NCBI GenBank assembly: GCA_020845935.1
Contig: JADLEV010000046.1
Span: forward strand, 379 to 64,378
Origin: Gammaproteobacteria bacterium
GTDB lineage: Bacteria > Pseudomonadota > Gammaproteobacteria > Ga0077536
Direction: 5' to 3'
Length of the DNA stretch: 64,000 nt
Shown here: positions 29,770 through 52,555 of the stretch, piece by piece
Numbering within the stretch: the first letter of the stretch is position 1
Layout of the letters: every line of letters starts with the position of its first letter
Made by a program: the position numbers and the translations under genes
Notes under the pieces: model-generated
Databases searched by the model: none
What the model was told of the DNA's origin: nothing
The model's input: only the letters and a program-made list of their open reading frames with translations

Positions 29770-30320
29770 CGATGTGACTCCGGCAGGATCATTGAACGTT
29801 TGGTGCCACGCAGCGCGCACAGTCGCTGCACCATGGCCGGCCGCGGCAGCACGATCTCGCCTTGTTCAAAGGCAACCACGGTCAGGTGGCGCAGCAAGAC
29901 CTCGAGCAACTCGTTTGGCCGCAACAGGAAATCCGGATTGCTCGGAGCGCCGAATGACTCGTTGCCCTGCATGAAGGTCTCGTAGATCAAGATGCCGCCG
30001 TCCGCGAGTGCATCGACCAACCGCGGCAGCAGCGGCCGGTACAGGTAGTTGGTGACGACGATGCCGTCGAACCGCATCCCGGGAAATGGCCATGGCCCGT
30101 CCTCGAGGTCGCTGCAGCGGGTTGTGACGCCTGCGACTCCGGATAAGCCAGCCACAGCATCGGGATCGCGATCGACCGCGAGCACCCGCTGACCGCGCCG
30201 CGCCAGCAACCGCGCATGCCGGCCGGAACCACAGGCGAGGTCGAGCACGGGTCCACCCGGCGCGAACAGCCCGGCGAAGCGGCTCACCCAAGGTGACGGA
30301 TCTGCGGTGGCGTGGCTCAA
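29766..30320 (-). CDS. Small class I SAM-dependent methyltransferase
   Basis: VLDLACGSGRHARLLARRGQRVLAVDRDP glycine-rich SAM-binding motif and the DGIVVTNYL block. Confidence 0.65.
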   Translation of the reverse strand: MSHATADPSPWVSRFAGLFAPGGPVLDLACGSGRHARLLARRGQRVLAVDRDPDAVAGLSGVAGVTTRCSDLEDGPWPFPGMRFDGIVVTNYLYRPLLPRLVDALADGGILIYETFMQGNESFGAPSNPDFLLRPNELLEVLLRHLTVVAFEQGEIVLPRPAMVQRLCALRGTKRSMILPESHR

Positions 30321-31855
30321 TCCGTGCTCCCGAGCGCCAGGATCTGCCGCACCATGGCACGCGCTGCATCGATCGAGATGCCGGAGTGTGCGGTCATCGC
30401 GGCTTCGCCGAAGTTGCCGGAACCACCGTCGATGATCCGGCGCGCGATGGCATCGATGTCGGGCCGCGCAGCGGTGTAATGGCGTGCGATCTCGCGATAC
30501 GACGGACCGACCGTGCGCCGCTCGACTTCATGGCAAGCCGCACAGTCGTGCTGGGGAAACAATGCGGTGCTTACCGCTTGCCCCGGCGCCACTGCCGGTG
30601 TGCCGGCTGCCGGCAGGGGAGCCGGCGCCGTCGTCCCGATTTGCTCGATGCGCAGCAGCACGCCGTCGTTCTCGTCGGTCAGCAGATACAGCAGTCCGTC
30701 CGGACCCTGGCCGACATAGCGAATGCGCTGCTGCAGATCGTTGAACAACTGCTCGCGCCGCTGTTCGCCGTTGTCGTTGAACACCACGCGTTGCAGATGG
30801 CCGGTGCCGGGAATGCGGCCAGCGATCATCGCCGAGACGAACAGGTTGTTCTTCCATGCGGGGATCCGATCGCCGGTGTAGAAGCTCAGGCTCGACACCG
30901 TGATTGAAGGTATCCACGACAGCAGCGGCGGCTCCATGTCCTGCCGCCACGGCACCGAGGCCATCGGCTTGCCGTCGTAGTCGCGGCCATAGGAGACCAC
31001 CGGCCAACCGTAATTCGCGCCGGCGCGCAGCACGTTGACCTCGTCACCGCCCTGCGGTCCGTTCTCGACTTCCCACACCGCGCCTGTGTGTGGATGCACG
31101 GTGAAGCCCATCGCCGAGCGGATGCCATAGCTGTAGATCTCGGGGAGCGCCCCCGCGACGCCGGCGAACGGATTGCCGGCCGCGGGCGAGCCATCGTCAT
31201 TGAGCCGCAGGATCTTGCCGATGTGCGAATCGAGTCGTTGCGGCGCTTCCAGATCGAGCCGATGCGACAGGCTCAGCCACAGCGTGCGATCCGGCATGAA
31301 CATGATGCGCGAGGTCGCGCCGCCGAAGTTCTTGCTCCACGCCCTGGCCTCGAAGATTTCCTTCAGATCGACGATCCTTTCACCTTCGAATCGGGCACGA
31401 ACGAGTGCGGTCGTCGCGTAATAGCCATTGGTCCCGTCCGGCCGTGGCGCCTTGCGCATGTAGTTGAAATAGACGATGTGATTCGTCGCGAAGTCCGGAT
31501 GCAGCACGACATCGAACAATTGATCGAACGGCAGGATCTGCGACAGGTCGATAATCGGCTCCTCCCGCAGCGTGCCGTCGCGGAACAGACGCACCGTGCC
31601 GCGGCGTTCGGAAATCAGCGCGTCGCCAAGCGGATTCGCCGCGGTTGCGGTCCCGGGCAGCAACGCCATCGTCCACGGATGGAACAGGCCGCGCGTCACC
31701 ACCGACAGCCGAATGCGCGTGTTCTGCTCGTAGGTCGTGTACTCCCAGGGACCTTCACCCAGAGGGTAGACGGGCAGCTGCTGTGCCTGCACACCGGCCG
31801 CAAGCAACAAGCCGATTGCACTGCTGCGTTGCACGAACCGAGGCGCGGATCTCAT
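30317..31855 (-). CDS. PQQ-dependent sugar dehydrogenase (sGDH/sorbosone DH-like beta-propeller) fused to a C-terminal cytochrome c domain
   Basis: Signal peptide. Propeller blocks resembling soluble glucose/sorbosone dehydrogenases. C-terminal CAACHE (CxxCH) haem-binding motif. Confidence 0.7.
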   Translation of the reverse strand: MRSAPRFVQRSSAIGLLLAAGVQAQQLPVYPLGEGPWEYTTYEQNTRIRLSVVTRGLFHPWTMALLPGTATAANPLGDALISERRGTVRLFRDGTLREEPIIDLSQILPFDQLFDVVLHPDFATNHIVYFNYMRKAPRPDGTNGYYATTALVRARFEGERIVDLKEIFEARAWSKNFGGATSRIMFMPDRTLWLSLSHRLDLEAPQRLDSHIGKILRLNDDGSPAAGNPFAGVAGALPEIYSYGIRSAMGFTVHPHTGAVWEVENGPQGGDEVNVLRAGANYGWPVVSYGRDYDGKPMASVPWRQDMEPPLLSWIPSITVSSLSFYTGDRIPAWKNNLFVSAMIAGRIPGTGHLQRVVFNDNGEQRREQLFNDLQQRIRYVGQGPDGLLYLLTDENDGVLLRIEQIGTTAPAPLPAAGTPAVAPGQAVSTALFPQHDCAACHEVERRTVGPSYREIARHYTAARPDIDAIARRIIDGGSGNFGEAAMTAHSGISIDAARAMVRQILALGSTD

Positions 31856-37003: not shown

Positions 37004-37807
37004 TCAGAATCTCGCGCCGACGATCAGCGCCGCGCCGCCCGGCCATGGCATTGGCGCGATCGTGAGCTTCGTGCGGCGATCGGTGTCCGCGATAGCGGCC
37101 ACGCTCTCGTAGCCGAGATACCAGCCGAGCATGGCTTGCGAGGAAAAATGCGAGGCATCGTTGACCCGCGACCACGCCGGCAACGCCGACAGCAGATGAA
37201 ACAACACACGGACGGCGGGCCGATCGTCGTTCATCCGAGCGATGGTCAGCAGTGGCACCGCACCACCGAAGGCATGCCCGCTGACGCCGTTGTCATCGGC
37301 GAACGGCTCCCAATGCGACGGATGCGGATCCTCGCCGGGGCGCGATGCGCCGGTCAGCCGCTGCAGGGCAAGCAATGCCGGCAGCCCCACCAGATAGGCC
37401 CGGCCGGTGCGCCGGCCGAAGCGGCCGATCGCGCCGGTGAATTCGTTGTCGGTAACGAGGGTGTCGAGTCCCGCGGCAAGCACCACCGCCGGCAACAGAT
37501 ATTTCGCTTCACCAAATTCCTTGGCGACCTCCCCCAGGTCGTCGCTGAAGTCACCGCGAAGGTCGTCCTGGTACCAGTCGTGAACCTCCTCATCGATCGA
37601 GGTATTCGCCACGATCGCGCCGATGCCGAACGCGACCCCGAGTCGCAGCAGACGCGGACCGGAATAGAACGATCGATAGTCATCGCCGATCGTGGTCCCT
37701 AGCGAGCGCGCCGGAGCCACCGGTTCCGCCGCCTGCGCCGTCAGAACCGACGCGATCCACGCCAGCAACACGGTGACAATGAATTGGGACGGTACCGTGG
37801 TCTTCAT
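37004..37807 (-). CDS. PAP2-superfamily phosphatase-like protein, secreted or membrane
   Basis: Signal/TM MKTTVPSQFIVTVLLAWIASVLTAQA. Contains an SGHA motif, one of the PAP2 motifs. Assignment is weak. Confidence 0.4.
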   Translation of the reverse strand: MKTTVPSQFIVTVLLAWIASVLTAQAAEPVAPARSLGTTIGDDYRSFYSGPRLLRLGVAFGIGAIVANTSIDEEVHDWYQDDLRGDFSDDLGEVAKEFGEAKYLLPAVVLAAGLDTLVTDNEFTGAIGRFGRRTGRAYLVGLPALLALQRLTGASRPGEDPHPSHWEPFADDNGVSGHAFGGAVPLLTIARMNDDRPAVRVLFHLLSALPAWSRVNDASHFSSQAMLGWYLGYESVAAIADTDRRTKLTIAPMPWPGGAALIVGARF

Positions 37808-37889
37808 CGGGTGTCGGATCCGTGGCTGCAAGGGCCGCGAATGATAAGGCCTCGAAGGGCATTGCAGATAGCCGTTCACGGGCCGTCGC

Positions 37890-39716
37890 TCACAACTCCT
37901 CGAACAGATAGCGCGCGAGGTCGGCGATGCCTTGCTCGTCCAGTAGATCGGGATAGAGCTTCGGCATCGGCGCCTTCGGATCCTTGATTGCGGTGATCGC
38001 GGCAGGCAAGTCCATCCGGTTCGGCAGGTCGCTCAGCGTGCGATTGGCGATGAAGTCACCATGGGCGCCATGGCAGGAGGCGCACACTTGCGTATACAAC
38101 CGGCGGCCATTGGCGAGGCCGCTGGTCGTGGGCGCGACGGTGGCATCGAGTTTTCGTGCCGGCACGGTCGGGTTCAGGGTCATGACGACGATGCTCGGCA
38201 GGCCGACGTCACCGAACGCATTGCGCGAGATGTTGCCGGCGGCGAGCGCGACATACTGCTTGCCCGCAATGTCGTAGGTCACGACGCCACCCGCCATCGC
38301 ACCGCCGACATCGACCTGATGCAGCACCCGGCCGTTCGCGCTGTCGAACACCAGGAAGTTGCCGGCGAGGTCGCCGGTAAACGTGACGCCGCCCGCAGTC
38401 GGCGTGACGCCGGCGATGACCGGCTTTTCGGCGTGATACTGCCAGCGGATTGCGCCGGTCTCGCTGTCGAGCGCAGTGACCCAGCCGGTGATGGGGCCGA
38501 CCGGTTCCACCAGGCCGCCGTAGTCGAGTTGGCCCGGCTCATAGAACGGCTTGTCCTGCAGCGTCACGAGAAAGCAGATATCGACCGCGCCGGTGATCAG
38601 ATTGCCGTTCAGGCGATCGAGTGCCGGCCCGTTCCACTCGACACCGCCGGCGAAGCCGGGGCAGATTCGCGTGCCCTCGCGCGAGGGTCGTGCCGGCATG
38701 TCGGCAATGGTCGTCACCGCGGTGCGGAACACGAGTTGTCGCGTGTCACGATCGACCACCGTGACATAACCGTCCTTGCCGGCGATCGCCACCAGGTCGC
38801 GCGCGCGCGCCGCGCGATAGAGCACCGGCGCCGCGGCGATATCCATGTCTTTCCAGTCGCCGGGCGAAACCTGGTACCACCACTTGAGCTTGCCGGTGAA
38901 GGCATCGAGCACGACGACCGAATTGGTGAACAGATTCTCTCCCGGCCGATAGCCGACATCGATGTCCGGCCACGGGTTGCCGACCGGCACGAACAGTTCG
39001 CCCGTGGTGAGGTCCACGCTCATCGAGCCCCAGATGCCGCCACCGCCGGTCTTCGCCGTCTCTGGCCTGCTCCAGGTCTCGGCACCGATTTCATCGCCGA
39101 GCGGGATGGTGTGGAACCGCCACAGCTCGTGGCCGGTGACCGCGTCGTACGCCATCACCCGGCCGCGCACGCCGAGCTCGCTGCCGGCAGTCCCCATGAA
39201 GACCAGGTTCTGCCAAGCCAGAGGTGCGGCGGAGGTCGATTCGCCGAGCACCGGCGAGGCGATGACGTTCTGCCACAGCAAGGTGCCGCTGCGCGCGTCG
39301 AGTGCGATCCGCCGGCCGTCACAGGTGCCGCGGAACAGGCGTCCGTTCAACAATGCCGCGCCGCGATTGGTGCCGCCGCACCGCGCCTCTTCCGGCGGCC
39401 AGTCGTGGGTCCATTTCACGTCGCAGGTCACGGCATCGACCGCCACGGTGCGCCGGCCGGTGGTCGCATAGATCACGCCGTCGTCAACGATGAGCCCGGC
39501 ATGAAACGCGGTCGGACCATCGATCTGCACGCGGCACACCTCACCCAGTTGCCGAGCGTTCTGCGTCGTAATTTCTCGCAACGACGAATAGCGCTGGCCA
39601 TCGAGGCCATTGTTGAAATTCAACCAGTCCAGGCCGGACACGGTTGCCTGTGCCTGAGCACCGGACCAGATCGCCGAACCGAGGATCGCGAGACTAAGCG
39701 TCAGGAGATTTTTCAT
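37890..39716 (-). CDS. PQQ-dependent dehydrogenase-like beta-propeller fused to a C-terminal cytochrome c domain (quinohaemoprotein type)
   Basis: Signal peptide. Repeated W-containing propeller blades. C-terminal CASCHGAHGD (CxxCH) mono-haem domain. Confidence 0.65.
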   Translation of the reverse strand: MKNLLTLSLAILGSAIWSGAQAQATVSGLDWLNFNNGLDGQRYSSLREITTQNARQLGEVCRVQIDGPTAFHAGLIVDDGVIYATTGRRTVAVDAVTCDVKWTHDWPPEEARCGGTNRGAALLNGRLFRGTCDGRRIALDARSGTLLWQNVIASPVLGESTSAAPLAWQNLVFMGTAGSELGVRGRVMAYDAVTGHELWRFHTIPLGDEIGAETWSRPETAKTGGGGIWGSMSVDLTTGELFVPVGNPWPDIDVGYRPGENLFTNSVVVLDAFTGKLKWWYQVSPGDWKDMDIAAAPVLYRAARARDLVAIAGKDGYVTVVDRDTRQLVFRTAVTTIADMPARPSREGTRICPGFAGGVEWNGPALDRLNGNLITGAVDICFLVTLQDKPFYEPGQLDYGGLVEPVGPITGWVTALDSETGAIRWQYHAEKPVIAGVTPTAGGVTFTGDLAGNFLVFDSANGRVLHQVDVGGAMAGGVVTYDIAGKQYVALAAGNISRNAFGDVGLPSIVVMTLNPTVPARKLDATVAPTTSGLANGRRLYTQVCASCHGAHGDFIANRTLSDLPNRMDLPAAITAIKDPKAPMPKLYPDLLDEQGIADLARYLFEEL

Positions 39717-40929: not shown

Positions 40930-42774
40930 TCAATCCCCGGAAACCCCGCGACCGCGACGCCGCGGCTCCTCGCCGCGCTCGTCACCGGAATTTTTGGCCG
41001 GCGCTTCGGCTTGCGGTACGGCTTTGGGCTGCGGCACCGGAGGCCGGTAGGCCGGCGGTGCTCCAGCCGGCGCGGCCCCACGCGTCCGCGCCGCCCCCTG
41101 ATCCGCATCGCGCCGGGTCGCGTCGCGCCAGGCGCGGTTCACCGTCCCCGGGGTGCGCTCGCCGGCCGCGGGTGCCGGAACCACGGCAGGCGCTGCTGGG
41201 ACGGGCGTGTCGCGGCGCAACTCGCGCCCACGACTGCGATCGGCATCCGGTGATGCACCGGCACCGGCCCGCTGGCGAGCGGCCGGTTCGGCCGGCGGTT
41301 GCGCACTTGGTGCCGGCTCGCGTGCCTCGAAGGTGCGGACGCTGGCCGCATTCGAGCCGGGCGCGCGACGGCGATCCGCCTCACGCTGGTCCGGCTCACG
41401 CGCGCGTTGTTCGGTGTCGCGCAGCCTGCGGGTTTCGATGCGCGTCGTCGGCAACGTCGGCTCCCGCGACTGCTCGATGGCGTTCGGCGGTGGTCGCCGT
41501 GCTCCCGCGTCATCGCGTTCATCGGAGGTGCGCCAGGCGCGGTTGAAACCGTCGCCGCCGTCACGGCCTGGGTCGGCGTTGCGACCGGCATCGGTTCCGC
41601 GGCGATCCCCGTTGCGCCGATCGTTATCGCGATCCCGATCGTCGTCGCGTCTCCAGTCCCGGCCACTGTCCCGGTCCCGATCACGATTGCCGTCGTTACG
41701 GTCGCGGTTCCAATCCCGATCGCTGTCCCGGTCCCGATCACGATTGCCGTCGTTGCGGTCCCGGTTCCAATCCCGATCGCTGTCCCGGTCCCGATCACGA
41801 CTGCCGTCGTTGCGGTCGCGGTTCCAATCCCGGTCGCGATCCCAGTCGCGATCATCCCCACGGCCGCGATCGCGGCGATCGAAGACACGGACCGTCACCG
41901 TGCGCCGCTGCACCGGATAACGGTGGGGTCGATCGAACGTCGTGTAGCGCCAGGAGGAACCGAAATACGGGTGGCCGATGTTGTCGTTGAAGATCAACCC
42001 GAGGCTGAACGTGGACCAGCCGATCGAGAAGTAGCTGCTCAACCCCCAGAAGAAATCCGTGCCGAAGGCGTAACCATCGGGATACGGGTAGTAATAGACC
42101 GGGAAGGACCGAGGGTAATAGGCCATCACCGGGCGGTTGTGCCGGACGAAAATCATGGCCGGCTCATAGCGCGGCACGTAAATTACGGCGGGGTTGACTG
42201 GCCGGATCACGATCCCGGCGCGCGTCCGTTCGACCCGCTGATAAGAGTCGCTGGCAAGATTTCCGGCGGCATAGGCGCGTGACCGCACGCGTTGGGCCGC
42301 CGCCATCACCGCGGCCTGACGTACCACCACCGCTTCCCCGAGTCGCCGTGTCCAATCGATGTCGGCGGCCAGCAAGTGCAGCACTTCGGGATAGTTGAGC
42401 AATGCCAGGATCGCATCGTCCCAGTCCGGATTGGGCGCCAGGGCAGGATCGATTTCGAGCTCTTCCAGATAGCGCGCCGCCTCCGCAAGCTGCCCCGGCG
42501 AGCGCGCCGCGGACAGTACCACCGCGAGCAGGTCATCGGGATAGAGCGCGATCGGCGCGACCAGATCATCGAGATACGAATCGGTTGCGACATAAGGAAC
42601 CGTTGCGTTGTCACCGTCGGGCCCCCTCAGCACGGTGCCGACCGCGAACGGATCCTGGGCAACAACCGCGGTCACTGAACCCAGCTGCGAGCCGAGGATT
42701 GCCGACAGCGCGAGGACAACCGTCCGCCAGCGCGATTTCCGCGGCAACCGTGGCAAGTGATTACGCTCGGTCAT
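40930..42774 (-). CDS. DUF3300-domain secreted protein with D/R-rich tandem repeats and a long disordered Pro/Ala/Arg-rich tail
   Basis: Signal peptide. IALYPDDLLA...LNYPEVL blocks typical of DUF3300. Then RDRDWNRDRNDGxRDRDRDS x3, followed by a low-complexity C-terminus. Confidence 0.65.
   Translation of the reverse strand: MTERNHLPRLPRKSRWRTVVLALSAILGSQLGSVTAVVAQDPFAVGTVLRGPDGDNATVPYVATDSYLDDLVAPIALYPDDLLAVVLSAARSPGQLAEAARYLEELEIDPALAPNPDWDDAILALLNYPEVLHLLAADIDWTRRLGEAVVVRQAAVMAAAQRVRSRAYAAGNLASDSYQRVERTRAGIVIRPVNPAVIYVPRYEPAMIFVRHNRPVMAYYPRSFPVYYYPYPDGYAFGTDFFWGLSSYFSIGWSTFSLGLIFNDNIGHPYFGSSWRYTTFDRPHRYPVQRRTVTVRVFDRRDRGRGDDRDWDRDRDWNRDRNDGSRDRDRDSDRDWNRDRNDGNRDRDRDSDRDWNRDRNDGNRDRDRDSGRDWRRDDDRDRDNDRRNGDRRGTDAGRNADPGRDGGDGFNRAWRTSDERDDAGARRPPPNAIEQSREPTLPTTRIETRRLRDTEQRAREPDQREADRRRAPGSNAASVRTFEAREPAPSAQPPAEPAARQRAGAGASPDADRSRGRELRRDTPVPAAPAVVPAPAAGERTPGTVNRAWRDATRRDADQGAARTRGAAPAGAPPAYRPPVPQPKAVPQAEAPAKNSGDERGEEPRRRGRGVSGD
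41668..41838. repeat. 3 x 57-bp perfect or near-perfect tandem repeat inside the DUF3300 gene
   Basis: Units start at 41668, 41725 and 41782 (gtcccggtcccgatcacgattgccgtcgtt[a/g]cggtc[g/c]cggttccaatcccgatcgct), with 2-4 substitutions between copies. Confidence 0.85.
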
Positions 42775-44866: not shown

Positions 44867-44979
44867 CTGCGCACGAGCCGGGTCAACTGTCCCCGAAACT
44901 GTTGCCGGAGTATGCTCCGCACGACAGGGCAGACTGCCGTTCCGACCTTCCCGAGAACCCGCTCCTTCCGGAGGCAACG

Positions 44980-46785
44980 ATGATTGAAAGGCACATCGGC
45001 GGCAGCTTCGTCGCCCGCGGTCTGTACCTCTTGCTGAGCTTGCAGTTCGGTTTCGCGCACGGTGCGCATGCCGACTTCACGGTCACCGGCAGCGTTGTCG
45101 ATGGCAACGGCAACCCGATAGCGCAGGCACAGGTGGTTTACCAGCCGCCGCCCGGCAGCGCCGGTGCCAGCGCCATCACCGTATTTGCCGATGCACAGGG
45201 CGAGTTCGCGTTTCCTCAGGCGTTCTCGGGAACACCCGGCGCATCGCTGCCGCTGGTCTCGCGTGCGCTCGGGTATGAGTACCGGACACAAGCGAGGAGC
45301 GGCAGCAATCAATCGCGCCCGCAGGTCACGTTGCTGATGGATCGGGTCGTCAATCAAGCCGCGGTCGCGCCGGCATCGGCATGGCTGCGGCAACGGATCC
45401 CGGAGCGGCAGCAGCAGTCGCAGTTCGTGATGGATTGCATCGACTGCCATCAGGTGCCGGCGCCGGAAGTGCGCGATTACGCCGCGGCGATCGCCGACAT
45501 GCACGCACCCGATCCGGCGGTGGCCCGGACGCAGAGCTGGCAGATGATCGTGCAGTACATGAATCGGCTGTCGGCCTGGGAGTTCTCACGCGGCAGTCGC
45601 AAGGCGGACACGCCACCGCAACCCGATGCGGTGTATTCGGTCAACAATGAGGACGCCGTCGCCGCGCGCCTGGCCGACCGCTTCGGTGATCGCCTCGAGG
45701 CAATCGAAGGCTATGCCTGGGGCGCCCCGCTGGCGGTGACGCCGCAGACCGCCATCTACGAATATGCGGTGCCGGAACCGAACGCGGTGCGGGAAGCGGT
45801 GCTGCTCGGCGGGCGTGCGCTCTGGGTCGCGGACGTGGCGACCAATCGCATGTACGAAATCGATATCGCCAGCGGCCGCCAGAAGATCCACGAGGCGCCG
45901 GTGGACGTGCCGATCGGCCCACATTCGCTGCACCGTGCCGCCGATGGCGGGCTGTGGGTCACGCCGCTGTTCAATAACGTGCTCAGCCGCATCAATCCAG
46001 CCAGCGGCGAATGGCGCACCTGGATGGTACGCGACGAGCGCGGCCGAGGCGCCGGCATCCATGATTTGAGCTTCGGTCACGACCATGAACTATTGACCGA
46101 CGCCAGCGGCCGCATCTGGTTCTCCGACATCGGCAACAACGGCGTCGGTTACCTCGATCCGAAAACCGGGCGCACCGAGCTGTTCGCCGCGCCGCCGGTG
46201 CCCGGCCGGGAGAACGAACCGGCGATGCTGTATGGCCTCATCATGAACAAGGCGCGCAACCAGATCTGGTACAGCCAGCTCGGCATCGGTGCCATCGGTG
46301 GCTTCGACATCGACCGCCAGCAGTTCTTCGAACCGATTGCGCTGCCGGATCCGAACTCCGGACCGCGCCGCATCACCATCGACGATGCCGACGTGATGTA
46401 CGTCGCGTTGTACGGCGGCGGCCAACTGCTCGAATTCGATTTGAACACGCGGCGCATCATCGGTGCCCATGACCTGCCGGATACCGCGAGCGCGCCCTAT
46501 ACCGCGACCTGGGATCCGGTGCGCAAGGTGGTGTGGATCGGTACCGCGAACGGTGACGTGATCTATCGCTTCGATCCGAAGACGAAAGGCTTTCAGGTGC
46601 TGCCGTTGCCACGGACCCGGGCGTTCCTGCGGATGATCGACATCGATCGCGCGACCGGTGTCCTCGTGACCTCCTATGCCAACATCGTCGAACTGGTGCA
46701 GGGTCCGCGCATGGCTGTCATCATCGATCCGGGCGACAATGTCTACCCGCAACGCTTCGCACCGAACGGGGAGACACGGCAATGA
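44980..46785 (+). CDS. Secreted protein: N-terminal carboxypeptidase-regulatory-like domain, a CxxCH haem c motif, and a Vgb/SMP-30-like six-bladed beta-propeller
   Basis: GGAGG RBS. Signal peptide MIERHIGGSFVARGLYLLLSLQFGFAHGAHA. TVTGSVVDGNGNPIAQAQVV Ig-like fold. CIDCH motif. Repeated propeller blades (LWVTP, IWFSD, IWYSQ, VWIGT). Confidence 0.55.
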   Translation: MIERHIGGSFVARGLYLLLSLQFGFAHGAHADFTVTGSVVDGNGNPIAQAQVVYQPPPGSAGASAITVFADAQGEFAFPQAFSGTPGASLPLVSRALGYEYRTQARSGSNQSRPQVTLLMDRVVNQAAVAPASAWLRQRIPERQQQSQFVMDCIDCHQVPAPEVRDYAAAIADMHAPDPAVARTQSWQMIVQYMNRLSAWEFSRGSRKADTPPQPDAVYSVNNEDAVAARLADRFGDRLEAIEGYAWGAPLAVTPQTAIYEYAVPEPNAVREAVLLGGRALWVADVATNRMYEIDIASGRQKIHEAPVDVPIGPHSLHRAADGGLWVTPLFNNVLSRINPASGEWRTWMVRDERGRGAGIHDLSFGHDHELLTDASGRIWFSDIGNNGVGYLDPKTGRTELFAAPPVPGRENEPAMLYGLIMNKARNQIWYSQLGIGAIGGFDIDRQQFFEPIALPDPNSGPRRITIDDADVMYVALYGGGQLLEFDLNTRRIIGAHDLPDTASAPYTATWDPVRKVVWIGTANGDVIYRFDPKTKGFQVLPLPRTRAFLRMIDIDRATGVLVTSYANIVELVQGPRMAVIIDPGDNVYPQRFAPNGETRQ

Positions 46786-47099
46786 AACCGACCTTTCTGG
46801 AACGCACGCTGCTTGGCGCGACCCTGATGGCCGTCGCGGCCACGGCCGCCGCCGATGCCGCGCTCGCCGAGCGCAAGTTCTGTTTCTCCTGCCATCATGC
46901 GACCGAAACCGGGCTCGGGCCGTCGTTTCAGGCGATCGCGGCGCGCCACGGCGCGCGCCGCGCACAGATGGCGCCGGTGCTGGCGTACAAGATCCAGCAC
47001 GGTGGCGGCGGCAACTGGGGCGTCGTGCCGATGGTACCGAGCCAGAACGTGTCCGAGGCCGATGCCACGGCACTCGCGCGCTGGATTCTTGGTCTTTAG
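46782..47099 (+). CDS. Class I mono-haem cytochrome c (c551/c552-like)
   Basis: Signal peptide. CFSCH haem site. Distal Met region GVVPMVP. Start overlaps the upstream stop (ATGA). Confidence 0.8.
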   Translation: MKPTFLERTLLGATLMAVAATAAADAALAERKFCFSCHHATETGLGPSFQAIAARHGARRAQMAPVLAYKIQHGGGGNWGVVPMVPSQNVSEADATALARWILGL

Positions 47100-47110
47100 G
47101 GCAGCGAGCC

Positions 47111-48175
47111 ATGATGGCTCCCAAGGCGCGCCAGCCACACCGGCATCACCGCACGCCCGTGCCGTCATGGTGGCGCCTGGTGGGAGTCATTGGTGCGCTG
47201 CTGACGACTTCAGTCGTACAGGCCGAAGACGCCACGTCGTCGGCTCCGGTTGCCGGTTGCGGCACCAGCAACTCCGGGGACGCCGCCTGGCTCGATCGCA
47301 TGCGCGGGAAACTGACCGAAGCGACCTGCACTTCGGCCCGCTGGTTCGATGGTCTGTTCGGCACGCCGCACGATTACGATGCCTACCGCGGTACCTATGG
47401 CAGCTTTTCGGTCGGCACGCTGTGGGATGAGTATGACGGCTTCGATCCGAAAATCCGCTTCAAGGCGCGGCTGCGCCTGCCGCAACTGAATGGGCGCTTG
47501 AATGCCTTCATCGGCCGGGTCGACGAAGACGAGTTCGTGACCGGAACGCTGAATCAGTTCGATACGTTGCCGGATCAGTTCCGCGATCTCAATGACGCGA
47601 AATTGCTGGTCGGCCTCGGCTATTCACGGCCGGGACTGGCCGGTCAGATTGATGTCGATGCCGGCGTCCATGTCGACATTCCACTCGATCCCTACCTGCG
47701 CGCGAACTACCGTCGCGCCTGGGCGCCGGCAACCGATGTCGTGATACGGTTCCGGCAAAGTGCGTTCTGGCAGTATGTCGACGGGGTCGGCACGTCGTCA
47801 AAGGTCGATGTCGACCTGGCGCTTGCCGAGCATCTGTTGCTGCGCACCTCCGGCCTCGCCAAGGTCGCGGAAAAGGTCGATGGCGTGGAATGGAACTCGA
47901 AGCTGACGCTGTATCACGAACTCAGCGCAAAGGATGCACTCGCCTATCAACTTGCCGCTGACGGCGAGACCGGCCGCGCGGTGCCGCTGCGTGATTACGG
48001 CGTGCGCATCATCTATCGCCGCCAGTTCCTGCGCGACTGGCTGATCCTCGAACTGCGCGGCGGGATCGGCTGGCCGCGCGAATTGATCACGGACCAAAGG
48101 GAATTCAATTGGGGGCTCGGCGCGGCGCTGGAGATGCGCTTCGGCGACTGGCCGAGCCTGCGACCGATGCAGTAA
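47111..48175 (+). CDS. Secreted hypothetical protein, possibly outer-membrane beta-barrel
   Basis: ATG at 47111 inside ORF 46676..48175. Signal peptide WRLVGVIGALLTTSVVQA. Alternating hydrophobic pattern over about 330 aa. No assignable family. Confidence 0.45.
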   Translation: MMAPKARQPHRHHRTPVPSWWRLVGVIGALLTTSVVQAEDATSSAPVAGCGTSNSGDAAWLDRMRGKLTEATCTSARWFDGLFGTPHDYDAYRGTYGSFSVGTLWDEYDGFDPKIRFKARLRLPQLNGRLNAFIGRVDEDEFVTGTLNQFDTLPDQFRDLNDAKLLVGLGYSRPGLAGQIDVDAGVHVDIPLDPYLRANYRRAWAPATDVVIRFRQSAFWQYVDGVGTSSKVDVDLALAEHLLLRTSGLAKVAEKVDGVEWNSKLTLYHELSAKDALAYQLAADGETGRAVPLRDYGVRIIYRRQFLRDWLILELRGGIGWPRELITDQREFNWGLGAALEMRFGDWPSLRPMQ

Positions 48176-48187
48176 GGCGGCATCGCC

Positions 48188-50212
48188 TCACGCAATCCGC
48201 GGCGGCCCGTGGATGGGCAGTTCCACCTGGAACACCGTGCCGCGCGGCGCTACCGGGGCAAAATCGATCGCGCCTCCGTGTTTCGCGATGATCTGCCGGC
48301 AAATCGGCAGGCCAAGGCCAGTCCCGCCCGGCTTGGTCGTCTCGAACAGGCCGAAGATATTCACTCCACCGGGGATGCCGCGCCCGGCATCGGCCACCAT
48401 GACCCGCACCTTGTCGCCCTGCAGTTCGGCACCAATCCGGATCGTGCTCCCCGGCACATCACTCGCCTCGATGGCGTTCTTCACCAGATTGTCGAAAACG
48501 CGCTGCAATTGATCGGCATCGGCGCGAATCGTCAGCGCCGCTGGCGGCAGATCGAGGCGCAGCGTCAAGCCCGAAGCGGTAGCCCGGAAAGCCCAGAGAT
48601 CGCAGACCCGCCGCAGCAGGTCCGCGATGTCGACCGGCCGCAGCATCAGGCCTCGGCCCCGAACGAAGTGACTGAGGTCGAGCAGCACCCGATCCATGTG
48701 GGCGACGGCATCGACGATGCGCTGCGCCAAGGGCCGCAACGATGCAGCCCCTTCGTCGCCGGTGCGTTTGATGTCGCGCAGCAGCGTATGCGCCATCAGC
48801 GACAGGCCGCTCAGCGGATTGCCCAGGTCATGGACGATCTGCGCGGTGACCGCGCCAATCGCCGCTTGATGCTGGCGCTCCAAACCTTCCAGCTCCAGTT
48901 CGCGAATGCGCTCGGCGTTGCGCCGGCTGCGGATAAATTCACCGATCTGGTTGCCGATCGCTTCGAGCAGCAGATGCAGGTCGCGGTCCGGCATCACCGC
49001 GAAGCGGCTGAAGAACACCACGACACCGAGCACCTCGCCGCCATGCGCGATGGGGAACGCATGCAACACCCGCAGGCCTGTGCGATCGGCAACGACGCGG
49101 CGCCGGAACTCCGGCTCATGGCGCAATTCGGCGCAGAAGATCGATACACCGCGCTCCCAGACCTTCCCGGGGATGCCACTGCCACGGGAAAAAACCGTTT
49201 CGCGGCTGGTGCGTTCGAATTCCTCGAGGTCGAGCCGCGGGTCATGCCAGGCATGCGCGCGCCGCAATACCGTACCCGCGGGGTCGACCATCCACACCTC
49301 GCCCGCGGCCCAGCCGGTGCCCTCGGCGAGTCTCGGCAACAGCCCGGTCAGCGCTTCATTGACGCTGTGCGCGCCAGCCATCGCCTGGGTCACCGCATAC
49401 TGCATCGCCAGCCGCCGCTCCGCTCGGCGCTGTTCGGTGATGTCGATCGCCATGCCACCAAGCAGAGGCTCACCGTCCACTCCTGCCAGCGGAAACTTCA
49501 GCACCAGCCAATTGCACGGCATGCCGTCGGCATCCGGAACGACTTCGTGGAACTCCTGGGCCTGCTGCTGGTTCAGCACCGTCTGGTCGTGGATCTGCAA
49601 CTGCTCGGCAATCGCCTCGGGCCGCAGGTCGAAATCGGTCTGCCCGCGCAACGCGTCGAGCCGTGTACCAAAGTGCGCTTCGTAGCGACGATTGACATAG
49701 AGGTAGCGGCCACGCCGATCCTTGATGAACGCGATTGCGGGGGCGTGATCCATGAAGGCCGTGAAGCGGGCAGCGACCTCATTGGCGATTCGCGTGGTCG
49801 ATTCCAGATGAGAGATGTCGCGAATGACGACGAGATCGAGCGCTTGTTGGTTCGTGCGCGCAGCAACCGTCAGGATCTCGACCGGGTACTCGGTGCCATC
49901 GCCGCGCCAGGCACGACTGATGGACGTGCCGCTTGCTGGCCGCGCCGCAGCAGCATCGGTAGCCAGCGCGAACTCCGGCAAAAAATCGGTCAGGCGGGCG
50001 CCGACCAGTTCGTGCTCACCGCGAGCGAACAGCTGCAGCGTTGCGGGATTGCAGCTTTGGATACGGCCCTGACCATCGACCGCGAGTACGGCATCGCGGC
50101 TGGTTTCGAACAACAACCGCCAGAAAGCAGCCGCCGGTCCCCCTTCGTCAGCACTTCCAGACTCGGTCGCCCGTCCCGCCCGCCGCGGTCGCTGCTCGTG
50201 TACTTTGCGCAT
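48188..50212 (-). CDS. Multi-PAS/GAF sensor histidine kinase (no receiver domain)
   Basis: Several PAS-like segments (WRLLFETSRDAVLAVDGQGRI...), then a HisKA H-box (IVHDLGNPL) and HATPase_c blocks (NLVKNAIEAS, DAGRGIP, GTGLGL). Start at MRKVHE with GAGGT RBS. Confidence 0.75.
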   Translation of the reverse strand: MRKVHEQRPRRAGRATESGSADEGGPAAAFWRLLFETSRDAVLAVDGQGRIQSCNPATLQLFARGEHELVGARLTDFLPEFALATDAAAARPASGTSISRAWRGDGTEYPVEILTVAARTNQQALDLVVIRDISHLESTTRIANEVAARFTAFMDHAPAIAFIKDRRGRYLYVNRRYEAHFGTRLDALRGQTDFDLRPEAIAEQLQIHDQTVLNQQQAQEFHEVVPDADGMPCNWLVLKFPLAGVDGEPLLGGMAIDITEQRRAERRLAMQYAVTQAMAGAHSVNEALTGLLPRLAEGTGWAAGEVWMVDPAGTVLRRAHAWHDPRLDLEEFERTSRETVFSRGSGIPGKVWERGVSIFCAELRHEPEFRRRVVADRTGLRVLHAFPIAHGGEVLGVVVFFSRFAVMPDRDLHLLLEAIGNQIGEFIRSRRNAERIRELELEGLERQHQAAIGAVTAQIVHDLGNPLSGLSLMAHTLLRDIKRTGDEGAASLRPLAQRIVDAVAHMDRVLLDLSHFVRGRGLMLRPVDIADLLRRVCDLWAFRATASGLTLRLDLPPAALTIRADADQLQRVFDNLVKNAIEASDVPGSTIRIGAELQGDKVRVMVADAGRGIPGGVNIFGLFETTKPGGTGLGLPICRQIIAKHGGAIDFAPVAPRGTVFQVELPIHGPPRIA

Positions 50213-50348
50213 GGACCTCGGTCTTTGCCCCGGCTCTTGCAGGCGATGATGCGCGATGGCCGCGGACAGCGTCAACCAGAGGCAATGACGACACGGTTGA
50301 CGCGGTGACGGCAATCGCTGATAAAGATGGCCCCGGCTGGAATCGACC

Positions 50349-50717
50349 ATGCGCTACTGGTTGTCATTGATATCGTTGACTCTGGTCAGCCTGCCGGCCC
50401 CGGCCGCGCCGACCGGCGCGGATCTCGAACGAGCCTGCAGCGCGGCGCTGCGGGACGGTTTCAGCACCGGACCCGGTCTGGCGTGCCTTTGGTACGGTAC
50501 CCCCTGTGCGTGCGACAAGTCCGCATCCCTGACTGCACGCCCGCAGAGCTGCCCACCCCCAAACCTCGACGAGAGGATCCGCGCGCAGGTGCTCATCGAT
50601 GGCTTTGCCGCACGCCCGGAGTTACGCGAATCGCCAGTGGAAGATGCCGTGGCGACGCTTTTTGCCGAGCGCTTTCCGTGCACCGAGAGCACCGCGAAAC
50701 CGCAGCCGCCGGAATAG
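50349..50717 (+). CDS. Small secreted Cys-rich protein (7 Cys), hypothetical
   Basis: Signal peptide MRYWLSLISLTLVSLPAPAAP. CxxC-like PCAC motif. High-GC codon usage. Confidence 0.45.
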   Translation: MRYWLSLISLTLVSLPAPAAPTGADLERACSAALRDGFSTGPGLACLWYGTPCACDKSASLTARPQSCPPPNLDERIRAQVLIDGFAARPELRESPVEDAVATLFAERFPCTESTAKPQPPE

Positions 50718-50809
50718 TCCGCCTCGACGCCTGCGTGCTATTCTTCGCCCGCTTTGCAGGCTGTTGTAATGCCGTCTCGGCGAGCCCAGACAACCACAGG
50801 AGACGACCC

Positions 50810-52555
50810 GTGCCCAGCACCCTCCACACCTCGACCCTAATCTGCTGCCTTAATCTGGCAGCCCTGCCGGCCGTGTTCGCGGCCGGCTCCACCGATTCCT
50901 TTCCTCCGGTCACCCAGAAGGTACTCGAGAATCCTGCTCCGGGAGATTGGCTGATGTTCAGCCGTACCTACGATGGCCAACGCTTCAGCCCGCTGGAGCA
51001 AATCAACCGCAAGACCGTCAAGGACCTCGCGGTCGCCTGGGACCAGGAATTGCCCGCGGGTCAGATGTACGGCATCCCGTTGGCCTATCGTGGCGTGCTC
51101 TATGTCCTCGCACCCGGCGACGTGCTGCTCGCGCTGGACGGCGCAACCGGCAAACAGATCTGGCGTTACGAACACGAAGAAACCGCGGCGCAGAAACAAG
51201 GGTCGCGAGCGAAGACCATTGCGATGTACGAGGACCTGCTGTTCATGGCGACCGGTGACAACCACATCACCGCGGTCGACATGCAAACCGGCAAATTGCG
51301 CTGGAAAACCGCCGTCACCGGCGGCGGCTCGCAGACCGCCGGGGTCATCGCGGTCAAGGGCATCGTGTTGTCCGGGCGCGCCTGCCTGCAAACGCGGGAT
51401 AGTTGCTTCACCGCGGCGCACGACGCCAAGACCGGCAAAGAGCTCTGGCGCTTTCATCATGTCCCCGCCATGGGCGAGCCGGGGAGCGAGACCTGGGGCG
51501 AATCCCCGGATCACGAGAAGAACATGGCATCAACCTGGGGCCTGCCCGGATCCTACGATCCGAAACGCAACCTCGTGCTGTGGGGCATCGCCAATCCGAT
51601 GCCGAACACGCGCATGGATCGGCACGGCGGCAATTACGCCGGCACGGCGTTCACAGCACCGGCCGATCTCTACAGCAACTCGACGGTCGCGCTCGAACTG
51701 GAGACGGGCAAGGTCAAGTGGTACTACCAGCATCTGCCGGGCGACGACTGGGATGAGGATTACACCAATGATCGCACGCTGGTCCGGACCAAGATCAACC
51801 CCGATCCGAAGAAGGTGAAATGGATCAACGAGGCAGCCCGCGGCAAGGAGTTCGATGTCTCGGTGATGATTGGCGAGGGCGGCGGCGTGTTCGTGATCGA
51901 TCGCGACAGCGGCGGCTTTCTCTGGGCCCATCCGTATCCCTTCGAAACCGAGCGTTTCCTGATCTCCGATATCGATCCGAAGACCGGCAAGACGTCCATC
52001 AACCGCAAGCTGCTGCTGGAAAAGCCGGGCGACCAACGCCTCGTCTGCTACTGGAACACCCGCAGCTTCTGGCCGACCGCTTACAGCCCGCGGACCAACT
52101 CGCTGTATGCGACCTACATCGACAATTGCCTCGACATGACGGCCAAGAGCGATCAGGCGCGTGAACGGCGGGTCGGAGCGTTCCGGCCGGAAGGTGATCC
52201 GCAGAAAACCTCGGGGCTGGCGAAAATCAACCTCGAAACCGGCGACATCATGCACTTCAATCAGTCGCGCGTTCCGACGGCCGGGAGCATGTTGGCAACC
52301 GCCGGCGGCATCGTGTTCAACGGTGATGTCGGCAGCCACTTCCGGGCGTTCAATGACGAGACCGGTGAGGTGCTGTGGGATACCAAGGTCGGTGGTCCGA
52401 TTTCCGTCAGCACCATCACCTATGCCGCCGGAGGCAAACAGTACGTCGCGATCCAGACCGGTGACACGATGGCTTCCGGCAGTTTGACGCGGCAATCCGG
52501 CACCGAGGCGCCGCGCGGTTTCAACCACCTCTACGTATTCGCCCTGCCGAAGTAA
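50810..52555 (+). CDS. PQQ-dependent dehydrogenase, methanol/ethanol family (divergent clade lacking the vicinal Cys-Cys)
   Basis: GTG at 50810 with AGGAGA RBS. Signal peptide. FSPLEQINRKTVKDL matches MxaF/ExaA YSPLDQINRxNV. AHDAKTGKELWR block. DDWDEDY near the expected catalytic Asp. Confidence 0.7.
   Translation: MPSTLHTSTLICCLNLAALPAVFAAGSTDSFPPVTQKVLENPAPGDWLMFSRTYDGQRFSPLEQINRKTVKDLAVAWDQELPAGQMYGIPLAYRGVLYVLAPGDVLLALDGATGKQIWRYEHEETAAQKQGSRAKTIAMYEDLLFMATGDNHITAVDMQTGKLRWKTAVTGGGSQTAGVIAVKGIVLSGRACLQTRDSCFTAAHDAKTGKELWRFHHVPAMGEPGSETWGESPDHEKNMASTWGLPGSYDPKRNLVLWGIANPMPNTRMDRHGGNYAGTAFTAPADLYSNSTVALELETGKVKWYYQHLPGDDWDEDYTNDRTLVRTKINPDPKKVKWINEAARGKEFDVSVMIGEGGGVFVIDRDSGGFLWAHPYPFETERFLISDIDPKTGKTSINRKLLLEKPGDQRLVCYWNTRSFWPTAYSPRTNSLYATYIDNCLDMTAKSDQARERRVGAFRPEGDPQKTSGLAKINLETGDIMHFNQSRVPTAGSMLATAGGIVFNGDVGSHFRAFNDETGEVLWDTKVGGPISVSTITYAAGGKQYVAIQTGDTMASGSLTRQSGTEAPRGFNHLYVFALPK

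What the first reader, a model, noticed from the sequence alone, without database searches (positions are those of the whole stretch)
44980..48175. Candidate novel periplasmic redox module: haem-c / Vgb-like propeller fusion, cytochrome c551, and a possible outer-membrane protein
The 601-aa protein combines three parts:
- a signal peptide and a carboxypeptidase-regulatory-like Ig domain;
- a single CIDCH haem-binding motif;
- a six-bladed propeller of the Vgb (streptogramin lyase)/SMP-30 type.
That fold is not normally a haem protein.
Its stop overlaps the start of a class I cytochrome c (CFSCH), which is followed by a secreted, possibly beta-barrel protein (47111-48175).
A propeller lyase or hydrolase fold wired to c-type haems and a dedicated cytochrome partner is not a described enzyme class. 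It may be a new periplasmic oxidoreductase. An alternative is a sensor for an extracellular substrate.
Basis: partly seen in the sequence, partly recalled or inferred. Interest (0 to 1): 0.7.

Follow-up and report, generated by a model that had tools for sequence, protein, structure and literature searches.

The report
Haem-linked propeller protein with cytochrome partner
A secreted protein that joins a c-type haem to a seven-bladed propeller of the antibiotic-lyase (Vgb) type is almost always encoded next to, or fused to, its own small cytochrome c551 in uncultured Gammaproteobacteria. It is probably an uncharacterised periplasmic redox enzyme, and the outer-membrane barrel gene beside it is not part of the unit.

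Summary
The sequence features are real. Gene A (44980-46785) encodes a signal peptide, an Ig-like domain, a haem c domain (CIDCH, probable Met194 ligand) and a Vgb-type propeller with seven blades, not six. Its stop overlaps the start of gene B (46782-47099), a true c551/c552-family cytochrome.

CxxCH is kept in all 120 listed homologues. B follows A in 51 of 53 related loci, about ten times as an in-frame fusion.

Gene C (47111-48175) is a predicted 14-strand outer-membrane barrel. It is absent from every related locus and sits in unrelated contexts elsewhere, so the unit is a pair, not a trio.

The Ig + haem + propeller architecture is a large unannotated superfamily (780 clusters at E<=1e-10). 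It has a near-universal ring of Tyr418, Arg463/464, Tyr507 and Arg551 (plus His315) where Vgb has its catalytic residues. Vgb's own catalytic residues are not kept.

No solved structure, curated family or paper covers it. PQQ dehydrogenase genes cluster close by.

Most likely reading: a periplasmic substrate:cytochrome c oxidoreductase. Substrate, cofactor and electron direction are unknown.

The parts
44970..44974 (+). Shine-Dalgarno-like GGAGG, 5 nt before the ATG of gene A
   Evidence: Read directly from the sequence.
44980..46785 (+). Gene A: a 601-aa secreted protein made of an Ig-like domain, a haem c domain and a seven-bladed Vgb-type propeller
   Evidence: ORF. Pfam hits. 100% match to an NCBI MAG protein of 601 aa. 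AlphaFold model with pLDDT 90.4 and pTM 0.91.
44980..45072 (+). Signal peptide of A (residues 1-31, ...AHGAHA|DF)
   Evidence: By inspection of the translation. Helix 10-24 in the model. No predictor was run.
45073..45345 (+). Ig-like (carboxypeptidase-regulatory-like) beta-sandwich, residues about 32-122
   Evidence: PF13620, E = 3e-6, below the gathering score. Beta strands 36-122 in the model.
45352..45729 (+). Helical mono-haem cytochrome c domain, residues about 125-250
   Evidence: Helices 132-234. A profile of this domain finds only class I cytochromes in the PDB, and only weakly: c2 at E = 0.013, SorB at E = 0.07.
45436..45450 (+). CIDCH haem c attachment motif (C153, C156, H157)
   Evidence: Present in 120 of 120 close homologues. 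Present in 71 of 77 distant ones, the remaining six being alignment gaps.
45559..45561 (+). Met194, the probable sixth haem ligand
   Evidence: Invariant in A1. Kept in 65 of 77 distant members. Aligns with the 'W...M' stretch of SorB. The ligand role is inferred.
45739..46749 (+). Seven-bladed beta-propeller, residues about 254-590. A conserved ring sits at the start of each blade's inner strand: R271, H315, H361, Y418, R463/R464, Y507, R551
46782..47099 (+). Gene B: a 105-aa secreted c551/c552-family cytochrome c (CFSCH at nt 46881-46895). Its start overlaps A's stop (ATGA)
   Evidence: Directly downstream of A or fused to it in 51 of 53 loci.
47111..48175 (+). Gene C: a 354-aa predicted 14-strand outer-membrane beta-barrel. 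It is a local neighbour, possibly co-transcribed, and not a conserved member of the unit
37890..39716 (-). Context: PQQ quinohaemoprotein dehydrogenase (propeller plus C-terminal cytochrome c)
   Evidence: Pfam PF01011 plus PF13442. Orthologues of 61-67% identity lie near A-B in L050, L037 and L052.
50327..52555 (+). Context: PQQ-dehydrogenase-like gene. The ORF starts at 50327; homology begins near 50840
   Evidence: PF01011 at 178.8 bits. TIGR03075 at 273.9 bits, below its cut-off of 480.

Best explanation
Genes A and B form a two-part periplasmic oxidoreductase. Both proteins are exported.

Proposed mechanism:
1. A small, probably anionic, ligand binds in the central top-face pocket of A's seven-bladed propeller. 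The pocket is lined by Arg271, His315, His361, Tyr418, Arg463, Arg464, Tyr507 and Arg551. The ligand could be the substrate alone, or the substrate plus a non-covalent cofactor such as PQQ, a tetrapyrrole or a metal.
2. Electrons pass between that pocket and A's own His/Met haem c.
3. They then pass to the c551-type cytochrome B, which connects to the respiratory chain.

The direction I favour is substrate oxidation, that is, a dehydrogenase that reduces c551. This matches the PQQ dehydrogenases that carry the same kind of cytochrome domain in this window.

Shown: the domain architecture; conservation of the haem motif and Met; the A-B linkage and fusions; the conserved ring of residues; the loss of Vgb's catalytic residues.

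Inferred: that the ring forms a pocket at the propeller axis (I had no model coordinates); that a second redox centre exists; the direction of electron flow; the substrate.

Gene C is an unrelated outer-membrane channel that merely lies downstream here. At most it is a local route for solute entry.
For: - Haem motif: CxxCH is present in 120 of 120 homologues. Cys, Cys, His and Met194 are kept down to 20-40% identity.
- Cytochrome partner: B is a real c551/c552 family member. It lies immediately downstream of A in 51 of 53 loci. About ten of these are in-frame A::B fusions, and many fused proteins of 685-717 aa appear in the database.
- Rigid assembly: pTM 0.91 over the whole 601-residue chain suggests fixed packing of the three domains.
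- Conserved ring: the residues at the start of each blade's inner strand are the best conserved in 77 distant members: Y418 74/77, R464 74/77, R551 75/77, Y507 73/77, R463 68/77, H315 52/77. In sequence alignment, Vgb's H228 and H270 fall on these same ring positions. H270A is the catalytically inactive Vgb variant (PDB title), and Vgb's substrate and Mg2+ bind at blades 6 and 7 (PMC8916777).
- Local analogy: the window also encodes a GSDH-type PQQ dehydrogenase with a C-terminal cytochrome domain 35% identical to B, and a PQQ quinohaemoprotein.
- PQQ dehydrogenase neighbours: such genes occur in 15 of 59 loci and concentrate near A-B. There are 10 within 2 kb, 6 at 2-4 kb, 4 at 4-8 kb and 0 at 8-10 kb. 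They belong to at least four subfamilies and several arrangements. One is a same-strand run of SnoaL-like gene, PQQ dehydrogenase, cytochrome, A and B.
- A TonB-dependent receptor lies directly upstream of A in L003.
Against: - No redox cofactor other than the haem can be seen from sequence. A scores against no PQQ, cd1, copper or molybdenum family.
- I could not inspect model coordinates, so the distance between the haem and the pocket is unknown.
- Three A homologues (L015, L047, L143) have no adjacent cytochrome. The few distant-clade loci examined also lack one.
- The PQQ dehydrogenase association may partly reflect gene-rich catabolic regions and shared ancestry among loci.
- There are no experimental data and no cultured host.
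Confidence: 0.55

Rival explanations
1. Same machine, opposite direction. A is a terminal periplasmic reductase or peroxidase-like enzyme. Cytochrome c551 (B) delivers electrons through A's haem c to an acceptor bound in the propeller pocket. This is how c551 feeds cytochrome cd1 nitrite reductase or di-haem peroxidases (the comparison is from general knowledge).
For: - The layout of an N-terminal haem c domain, a propeller, and a c551 gene directly downstream copies nirS-nirM (established knowledge, not tested here).
- In L018-type loci one same-strand run encodes a PQQ dehydrogenase, a 273-aa cytochrome, A and B. This could be a complete donor-to-acceptor chain.
- An Arg-, His- and Tyr-rich ring would suit an oxyanion or a tetrapyrrole.
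Against: - There is no match to the cd1 family or any other reductase family.
- No cofactor-biosynthesis genes or anaerobic regulators were seen nearby.
- The same c551-type domain is fused to dehydrogenases in this window.
- Neighbouring genes look like aerobic catabolism.
Confidence: 0.2
2. A is not catalytic. It is an electron-transfer adaptor or docking subunit. Its propeller binds a partner protein, for example a PQQ dehydrogenase, or a ligand. Its haem merely relays electrons to c551.
For: - The haem is predicted to be His/Met six-coordinate, typical of pure electron carriers.
- PQQ dehydrogenase genes recur close by.
- Cofactor-free propeller subunits exist in other redox complexes (general knowledge).
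Against: - A ring of one or two conserved polar residues per blade around the axis points to a small-ligand site rather than a protein interface.
- The PQQ dehydrogenase neighbours belong to four or more subfamilies, many already with their own cytochrome domain.
- About three quarters of loci have no PQQ dehydrogenase within 10 kb.
Confidence: 0.1
3. A is a hydrolase or lyase like Vgb or the SMP-30 lactonases. The haem domain would be accessory (redox sensing, stability or targeting) rather than part of catalysis.
For: - Best fold and Pfam match is the Vgb lyase family.
- Sources label homologues 'streptogramin lyase'.
- A lactonase next to PQQ sugar or alcohol dehydrogenases would make pathway sense.
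Against: - Vgb's catalytic His228, Glu268 and His270 align with Arg463, Ala505 and Tyr507.
- Scores against the curated Vgb(A) and Vgb(B) models are 30-40 bits against a cut-off of 600.
- Strict conservation of CxxCH and Met, plus repeated fusion to a c551 domain, is hard to explain without electron transfer.
Confidence: 0.08
4. The trio A-B-C is an outer-membrane porin-cytochrome conduit or a sensor for an extracellular substrate, as the first reader suggested as an alternative.
For: - C is a predicted outer-membrane barrel only 11 nt downstream of B.
- A histidine kinase lies next to C on the other strand.
Against: - C is absent from all related loci. Its homologues sit in unrelated contexts, including a different contig of a MAG that has an A-B pair.
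- C has no haem motif and only 14 strands.
- A has no signalling domain.
- Only partial kinase-core matches to this histidine kinase occur, in four loci.
Confidence: 0.03

Closest known systems
Virginiamycin B (streptogramin B) lyase Vgb (PDB 2z2n, 2z2o, 2z2p, 2qc5)
   Same: - Passes the Pfam PF24684 gathering score.
- The conserved ring in A occupies the same repeat positions as Vgb's catalytic Tyr and His residues.
   Different: - Vgb is a single-domain enzyme with no haem. It is cytoplasmic, Mg2+-dependent and acts as a lyase (those three points are from general knowledge).
- A is secreted and carries an Ig domain and a haem c domain.
- A lacks Vgb's His228, Glu268 and His270.
- A scores 30-40 bits against the curated Vgb models, whose cut-off is 600.
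Cytochrome cd1 nitrite reductase NirS with its c551 donor NirM
   Same: - The logic of the architecture: an N-terminal His/Met haem c domain, a beta-propeller with a central Arg-, His- and Tyr-lined pocket, and a c551 gene immediately downstream.
- B belongs to the same c551/c552 family.
- The NirS features are from established knowledge.
   Different: - NirS has an eight-bladed haem d1 propeller (Pfam PF02239), to which A shows no similarity.
- No d1 biosynthesis or denitrification genes were seen in the locus.
- A has an extra Ig domain.
Quinohaemoprotein dehydrogenases: PQQ alcohol dehydrogenase with a C-terminal cytochrome c, and GSDH-type sugar dehydrogenase with a C-terminal cytochrome c
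   Same: - A periplasmic propeller enzyme joined to a class I cytochrome c acceptor.
- Both kinds are encoded in this window (30317-31855 and 37890-39716).
- The GSDH's cytochrome domain is 35% identical to B.
- A::B fusions place the c551 domain C-terminal to the propeller in the same way.
   Different: - A's propeller is of the Vgb type, not the eight-blade PQQ or six-blade GSDH type.
- A has no match to PF01011, PF13360 or PF07995.
- A has an additional internal haem domain before the propeller.
- PQQ binding by A is unproven.
OmpG-like monomeric 14-strand porins (for gene C only)
   Different: - About 10% sequence identity and no Pfam or NCBIfam match.
- An extra N-terminal helix.
- Its own family of about 96 unannotated homologues.

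Membership tests
Virginiamycin B lyase (Vgb) family | Seven-bladed beta-propeller fold of the Vgb type | tested here: met
   [not shown]
Virginiamycin B lyase (Vgb) family | Score above the Pfam PF24684 gathering threshold | tested here: met
   60.3 bits against a cut-off of 50, covering residues 254-478 only.
Virginiamycin B lyase (Vgb) family | Score above the curated NCBIfam Vgb(A) and Vgb(B) cut-offs (the functional streptogramin lyases) | tested here: not met
   40.3 and 30.4 bits against a cut-off of 600.
Virginiamycin B lyase (Vgb) family | Catalytic and Mg2+-site residues in blades 6-7 (His228, Glu268, His270) | tested here: not met
   Pairwise alignment gives H228 to R463, E268 to A505 and H270 to Y507. 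In the register set by the N-terminal closing strand they fall on Y507, F549 and R551 (reading of the repeats). The residue roles come from PMC8916777, the 2z2p title 'inactive H270A' and my memory of Korczynska 2007. Caveat: the repeat register is ambiguous, and H315/H361 form a His pair on adjacent blades elsewhere in the ring.
Class I cytochrome c, c551/c552 (c8) group (gene B) | CxxCH plus a distal Met, about 80 mature residues, and sequence similarity to c551/c552 | tested here: met
   PF00034 at 25.4 bits against 21.3. Nitrosomonas c-552 (1a56) at E = 2e-16; Pseudomonas c551 at about 1e-11 over the whole mature protein. The CFSCH and 'VPMVP' motifs are read from the sequence. The narrow NCBIfam cytochro_C551 model is not reached (17.9 bits against 118).
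Class I cytochrome c (the internal haem domain of A) | Significant similarity to a cytochrome c family | tested here: inconclusive
   No Pfam hit for A's haem domain at E<=0.01. A profile of the domain finds only class I cytochromes in the PDB, but at E = 0.013-0.3. CxxCH, Trp187 and Met194 are conserved.
Cytochrome cd1 nitrite reductase | Eight-bladed haem d1 propeller (Pfam PF02239) | tested here: not met
   [not shown]
PQQ-dependent dehydrogenases (quinoproteins) | PQQ propeller families PF01011, PF13360 or PF07995 | tested here: not met
   None of these hit A, while they hit three neighbouring genes strongly. Whether A binds PQQ cannot be tested with these tools.
Outer-membrane beta-barrel porins (gene C) | Closed antiparallel transmembrane beta-barrel plus a signal peptide | tested here: met
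   [not shown]
Conserved A-B-C gene trio | Co-occurrence of C with A-B in related genomes | tested here: not met
   None of the 56 related loci searched contains a C homologue (tblastn at E<=1e-5). C homologues lie in three unrelated contexts.

The most novel reading that the evidence does not exclude
The Ig + haem c + Vgb-type propeller proteins are a previously unrecognised class of periplasmic cytochrome-c-linked oxidoreductases. Their catalytic centre sits in the Arg/Tyr/His-lined axis pocket of a propeller lineage so far known only from a cofactor-independent antibiotic lyase. The pocket may hold a non-covalent cofactor such as PQQ, a tetrapyrrole or a metal. In uncultured soil, sediment and marine Gammaproteobacteria the enzyme has recruited a dedicated c551 and works alongside PQQ dehydrogenases in periplasmic catabolism.
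Probability: 0.4. Interest if true: 0.8.

Novelty: new variant of a known kind. Interest (0 to 1): 0.6.

Why it matters
If A-B is an enzyme, it adds a new propeller lineage to the short list of periplasmic dehydrogenases or reductases wired to c-type cytochromes: cd1 nitrite reductase, quinohaemoproteins and GSDH-cytochrome fusions.

It would also correct hundreds of database entries now labelled 'streptogramin lyase'. That label implies antibiotic resistance and is almost certainly wrong.

The family is abundant in uncultured Gammaproteobacteria of soil, sediment and sea (labels include Steroidobacteraceae, Woeseiaceae and Pseudohongiellaceae). These organisms rely on periplasmic oxidation of organic compounds. 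An unassigned, respiratory-chain-linked enzyme there is a real gap in carbon-turnover annotation.

The conserved pair, the natural fusions and the well-defined ring of residues make the question directly testable.

Tried and rejected
- The Foldseek search against afdb50 could not be run because the library is not installed. I therefore have no UniProt-level names for structural neighbours.
- The original Vgb structure paper could not be read. The roles of the catalytic residues rest on PMC8916777, a PDB title and memory.
- Literature searches found nothing relevant. The terms tried were 'streptogramin lyase' or 'virginiamycin B lyase' with cytochrome; 'carboxypeptidase regulatory-like' with cytochrome c and propeller; and DUF6152.
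- An exact-sequence look-up of the window's own protein found no record.
The narrower one returned mostly proteins that share only the Ig + haem module. Only about seven loci had the propeller, too few for statistics, and none had an obvious adjacent small cytochrome.
- No cultured isolate turned up in three protein searches and one genome scan.
- Model coordinates are not exposed by the tools. Haem-to-pocket geometry and the pocket itself could not be measured.
- Rejected readings: a streptogramin resistance lyase; a cd1 or PQQ family member; a porin-cytochrome trio; a sensor. Reasons are given under the rival explanations and the membership tests.
- The terminator-like hairpin at 46860-46874 lies inside gene B. 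The region has fewer such sites than its shuffles, so I treat it as chance.
Full report
**1. What is in the window**

- Gene A occupies 44980-46785 on the + strand and encodes 601 aa. A longer GTG-started frame exists from 44863. The ATG at 44980 follows a GGAGG and matches the 601-aa NCBI protein of a Gammaproteobacteria MAG at 100% identity.
- Pfam finds a carboxypeptidase-regulatory-like Ig domain at residues 34-104 (E = 3e-6, just under the gathering score). It finds the Virginiamycin B lyase family PF24684 above threshold (60.3 bits against 50) and SGL at threshold.
- A carries one CIDCH, at residues 153-157.
- A's stop overlaps the start of gene B (ATGA at 46782-46785).
- B (105 aa, CFSCH) is a genuine c551/c552-family cytochrome. 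Nitrosomonas c-552 matches at E = 2e-16 and Pseudomonas c551 at about 1e-11, over the whole mature chain.
- Gene C (47111-48175) starts 11 nt after B and has no Pfam or NCBIfam match.

**2. Structure**

- With a 64-sequence alignment, AlphaFold gives A a mean pLDDT of 90.4 and pTM of 0.91.
- The model shows a signal helix, a beta-sandwich (36-122), a helical domain (132-234) that holds the CxxCH, and a propeller (258-583).
- No solved structure covers more than the propeller part.
- A profile of the haem domain finds only class I cytochromes in the PDB, and only weakly (E = 0.013-0.3). It lines up the conserved Trp187...Met194 stretch with the 'W...M' stretch of SorB. I infer His157/Met194 ligation, the signature of an electron-transfer haem.

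**3.

- CxxCH is present at the same place in all 120 listed homologues of 52-68% identity.
- In a scan of one genome per species, all 53 loci found were MAGs, mostly Gammaproteobacteria. Labels include Steroidobacteraceae, Woeseiaceae, Pseudohongiellaceae and Nevskiaceae.
- Of the related loci held with at least 450 nt of sequence after A (53; L001-L003 from the contig look-ups included), 51 carry a B homologue immediately downstream. About ten of these are in-frame A::B fusions. Many 685-717-aa fused proteins with a second CxxCH are in the protein database.
- Exceptions without an adjacent cytochrome are L015, L047 and L143.
- Both refutation conditions therefore fail, and the A-B unit is real.
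- Gene C has no homologue in any related locus. Its 96 relatives form their own unannotated family and lie in unrelated neighbourhoods. One is on a different contig of the very MAG that carries an A-B pair (with L050).
- The conserved unit is a pair, not a trio.

**4. How wide the family is**

- A profile search of 1.84 billion cluster representatives gives 4397 hits at E<=1e-3, 780 at E<=1e-10 and 130 at E<=1e-30.
- Nearly all full-length hits of 500-620 aa have a CxxCH at about residue 140-170. A few distant ones also carry a C-terminal cytochrome domain.
- Ig + haem c + Vgb-type propeller is thus a large superfamily. Source names are only 'streptogramin lyase', 'virginiamycin B lyase', 'carboxypeptidase regulatory-like domain-containing protein' or 'hypothetical'.
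- No isolate genome appeared.

**5. The likely active site**

- In 77 distant members (20-40% identity to A) the best-kept positions fall into two groups:
  - the haem residues: Cys, Cys, His, Trp187 (66/77) and Met194 (65/77);
  - a set in the propeller: Tyr418 (74), Arg464 (74), Arg551 (75), Tyr507 (73), Arg463 (68), Asp374 (70), Asp487 (65), Asp512 (62) and His315 (52).
- Read against the seven repeats, R271, H315, H361, Y418, R463, Y507 and R551 occupy the same repeat position, one per blade. That position is the residue after the 'P' that opens the inner strand.
- Vgb's Tyr18, His228 and His270 sit at that same repeat position. In a pairwise alignment, H228 and H270 fall on R463 and Y507.
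- H270A is the inactive Vgb variant. Vgb binds substrate and Mg2+ at blades 6-7 (PMC8916777).
- A therefore keeps the location of the Vgb active site but has replaced its chemistry with an Arg/Tyr/His ring. Such a ring would suit an anionic ligand or a carboxylate-bearing cofactor.
- This last step is inference. I could not inspect coordinates.

**6. Genomic context**

- Beyond B, nothing is universally conserved.
- PQQ dehydrogenase genes are the commonest neighbours. There are 20 genes in 15 of 59 loci, from at least four subfamilies, in convergent, divergent and co-directional arrangements.
- Their density falls with distance from A-B: 10 within 2 kb, 6 at 2-4 kb, 2 at 4-6 kb, 2 at 6-8 kb and none at 8-10 kb.
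- In five loci one strand carries PQQ dehydrogenase, a 273-aa cytochrome, A and B. Read in full in L018, the run opens with a SnoaL-like gene and continues with a glyoxalase-family gene.
- The 64-kb window holds exactly two such PQQ dehydrogenases, both within 6 kb of A-B. It also holds a GSDH-type PQQ dehydrogenase whose C-terminal cytochrome domain is 35% identical to B.
- Other recurrent neighbours:
  - TonB-dependent receptors;
  - DUF6152 with an unannotated partner;
  - aromatic or alcohol catabolic genes.
- Caveats: the loci are phylogenetically related, and these genomes appear rich in such genes.

**7. Interpretation**

- The best-supported reading is that A-B is a periplasmic oxidoreductase. 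A ligand site at the propeller axis exchanges electrons with A's His/Met haem c, which exchanges them with c551.
- I favour the dehydrogenase direction. The same cytochrome module is the built-in acceptor of PQQ dehydrogenases in this very window, and the context is oxidative catabolism.
- The reverse direction (a cd1-like reductase fed by c551) cannot be excluded.
- A His/Met haem cannot itself do inner-sphere chemistry. So either a second cofactor sits in the pocket (PQQ, a tetrapyrrole and a metal are all compatible with the residue set), or the substrate is itself a one-electron donor.
- A pure lyase or hydrolase role, a scaffold role, a sensor and a porin-cytochrome trio are all less likely, for the reasons listed with each rival.

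**8. Comparison and novelty**

- A belongs to the Pfam Vgb_lyase family in the fold sense.
- It fails the functional tests for a streptogramin lyase:
  - curated model scores of 30-40 bits against a cut-off of 600;
  - catalytic residues not kept;
  - a secreted multidomain haem protein.
- In working logic it resembles cd1 nitrite reductase with NirM, and quinohaemoproteins, but it belongs to neither family.
- I found no paper, solved structure or curated model for it.
- I rate it a new variant of a known kind (cytochrome-c-linked periplasmic propeller oxidoreductases), with interest 0.6. The pair, its conservation and its active-site ring are solid and testable. Substrate, cofactor and direction remain unknown.

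Noticed in passing
window 30317-31855 (-): A GSDH-type (soluble glucose/sorbosone dehydrogenase, PF07995, 315 bits) PQQ enzyme is fused to a C-terminal c551-like cytochrome domain. That domain is 35% identical to gene B.
   Followed up: partly
window 37890-39716 (-) and 37004-37879 (-): A PQQ quinohaemoprotein dehydrogenase (C-terminal CASCH cytochrome domain) sits next to a PAP2-like gene. Orthologues of 61-67% identity recur near A-B in L050, L037 and L052.
   Followed up: partly
window 50327-52555 (+): A PQQ-dehydrogenase-like protein scores below the methanol/ethanol-family cut-off (274 bits against 480). It scores almost equally against the 'acido-empty-quinoprotein group A' model (264 bits against 650). 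It may be a divergent or cofactor-less quinoprotein.
   Followed up: no
window 40930-42774 (-), repeat at 41644-41854: A DUF3300 protein carries a 57-nt tandem repeat (3.7 copies, 90% matches). The repeat encodes an Arg/Asp-rich 'DRDRDWNRDRNDG' low-complexity stretch.
   Followed up: partly
L001 2443-4510, L003 14068-15325, L060 11338-12862, L062 6742-8011, L144 9657-10688; window 28215-28970 (-): DUF6152 is a small secreted protein whose mature N-terminus reads 'HHS'. It is adjacent to, or fused with, an unannotated domain of 250-370 aa. The pair lies within 10 kb of A-B in about 13 loci. The window has a homologue of the partner domain beside Amidohydro_2 and EthD genes. No literature on DUF6152 was found.
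   Followed up: partly
L018 9117-9938 and homologues in L009, L020, L026, L030: A 273-aa cytochrome encoded between the PQQ dehydrogenase and A keeps an unusual CX4CH motif (CATSYCH, CTNSFCH or CSNSFCH) as well as a standard CSTCH.
   Followed up: no
L072-L142 (soil metagenome contigs): Many proteins share only the Ig + 'CTGCHQFG' haem module with the distant clade of the superfamily. They gave no hit to the profile built from A and its close homologues (A1). The N-terminal module may combine with other C-terminal domains.
   Followed up: no
window 48188-50350 (-): A PAS-PAS-GAF histidine kinase lies between gene C and the PQQ-dehydrogenase-like gene. It is not conserved with A-B: only partial kinase-core matches occur, in four loci.
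   Followed up: partly
L015, L047, L143: These A homologues have no adjacent cytochrome c gene. L143 has a TonB-dependent receptor downstream and a CBM9/DUF5916-like gene further on, and L015 has a large unannotated gene upstream. They may use a partner encoded elsewhere.
   Followed up: partly
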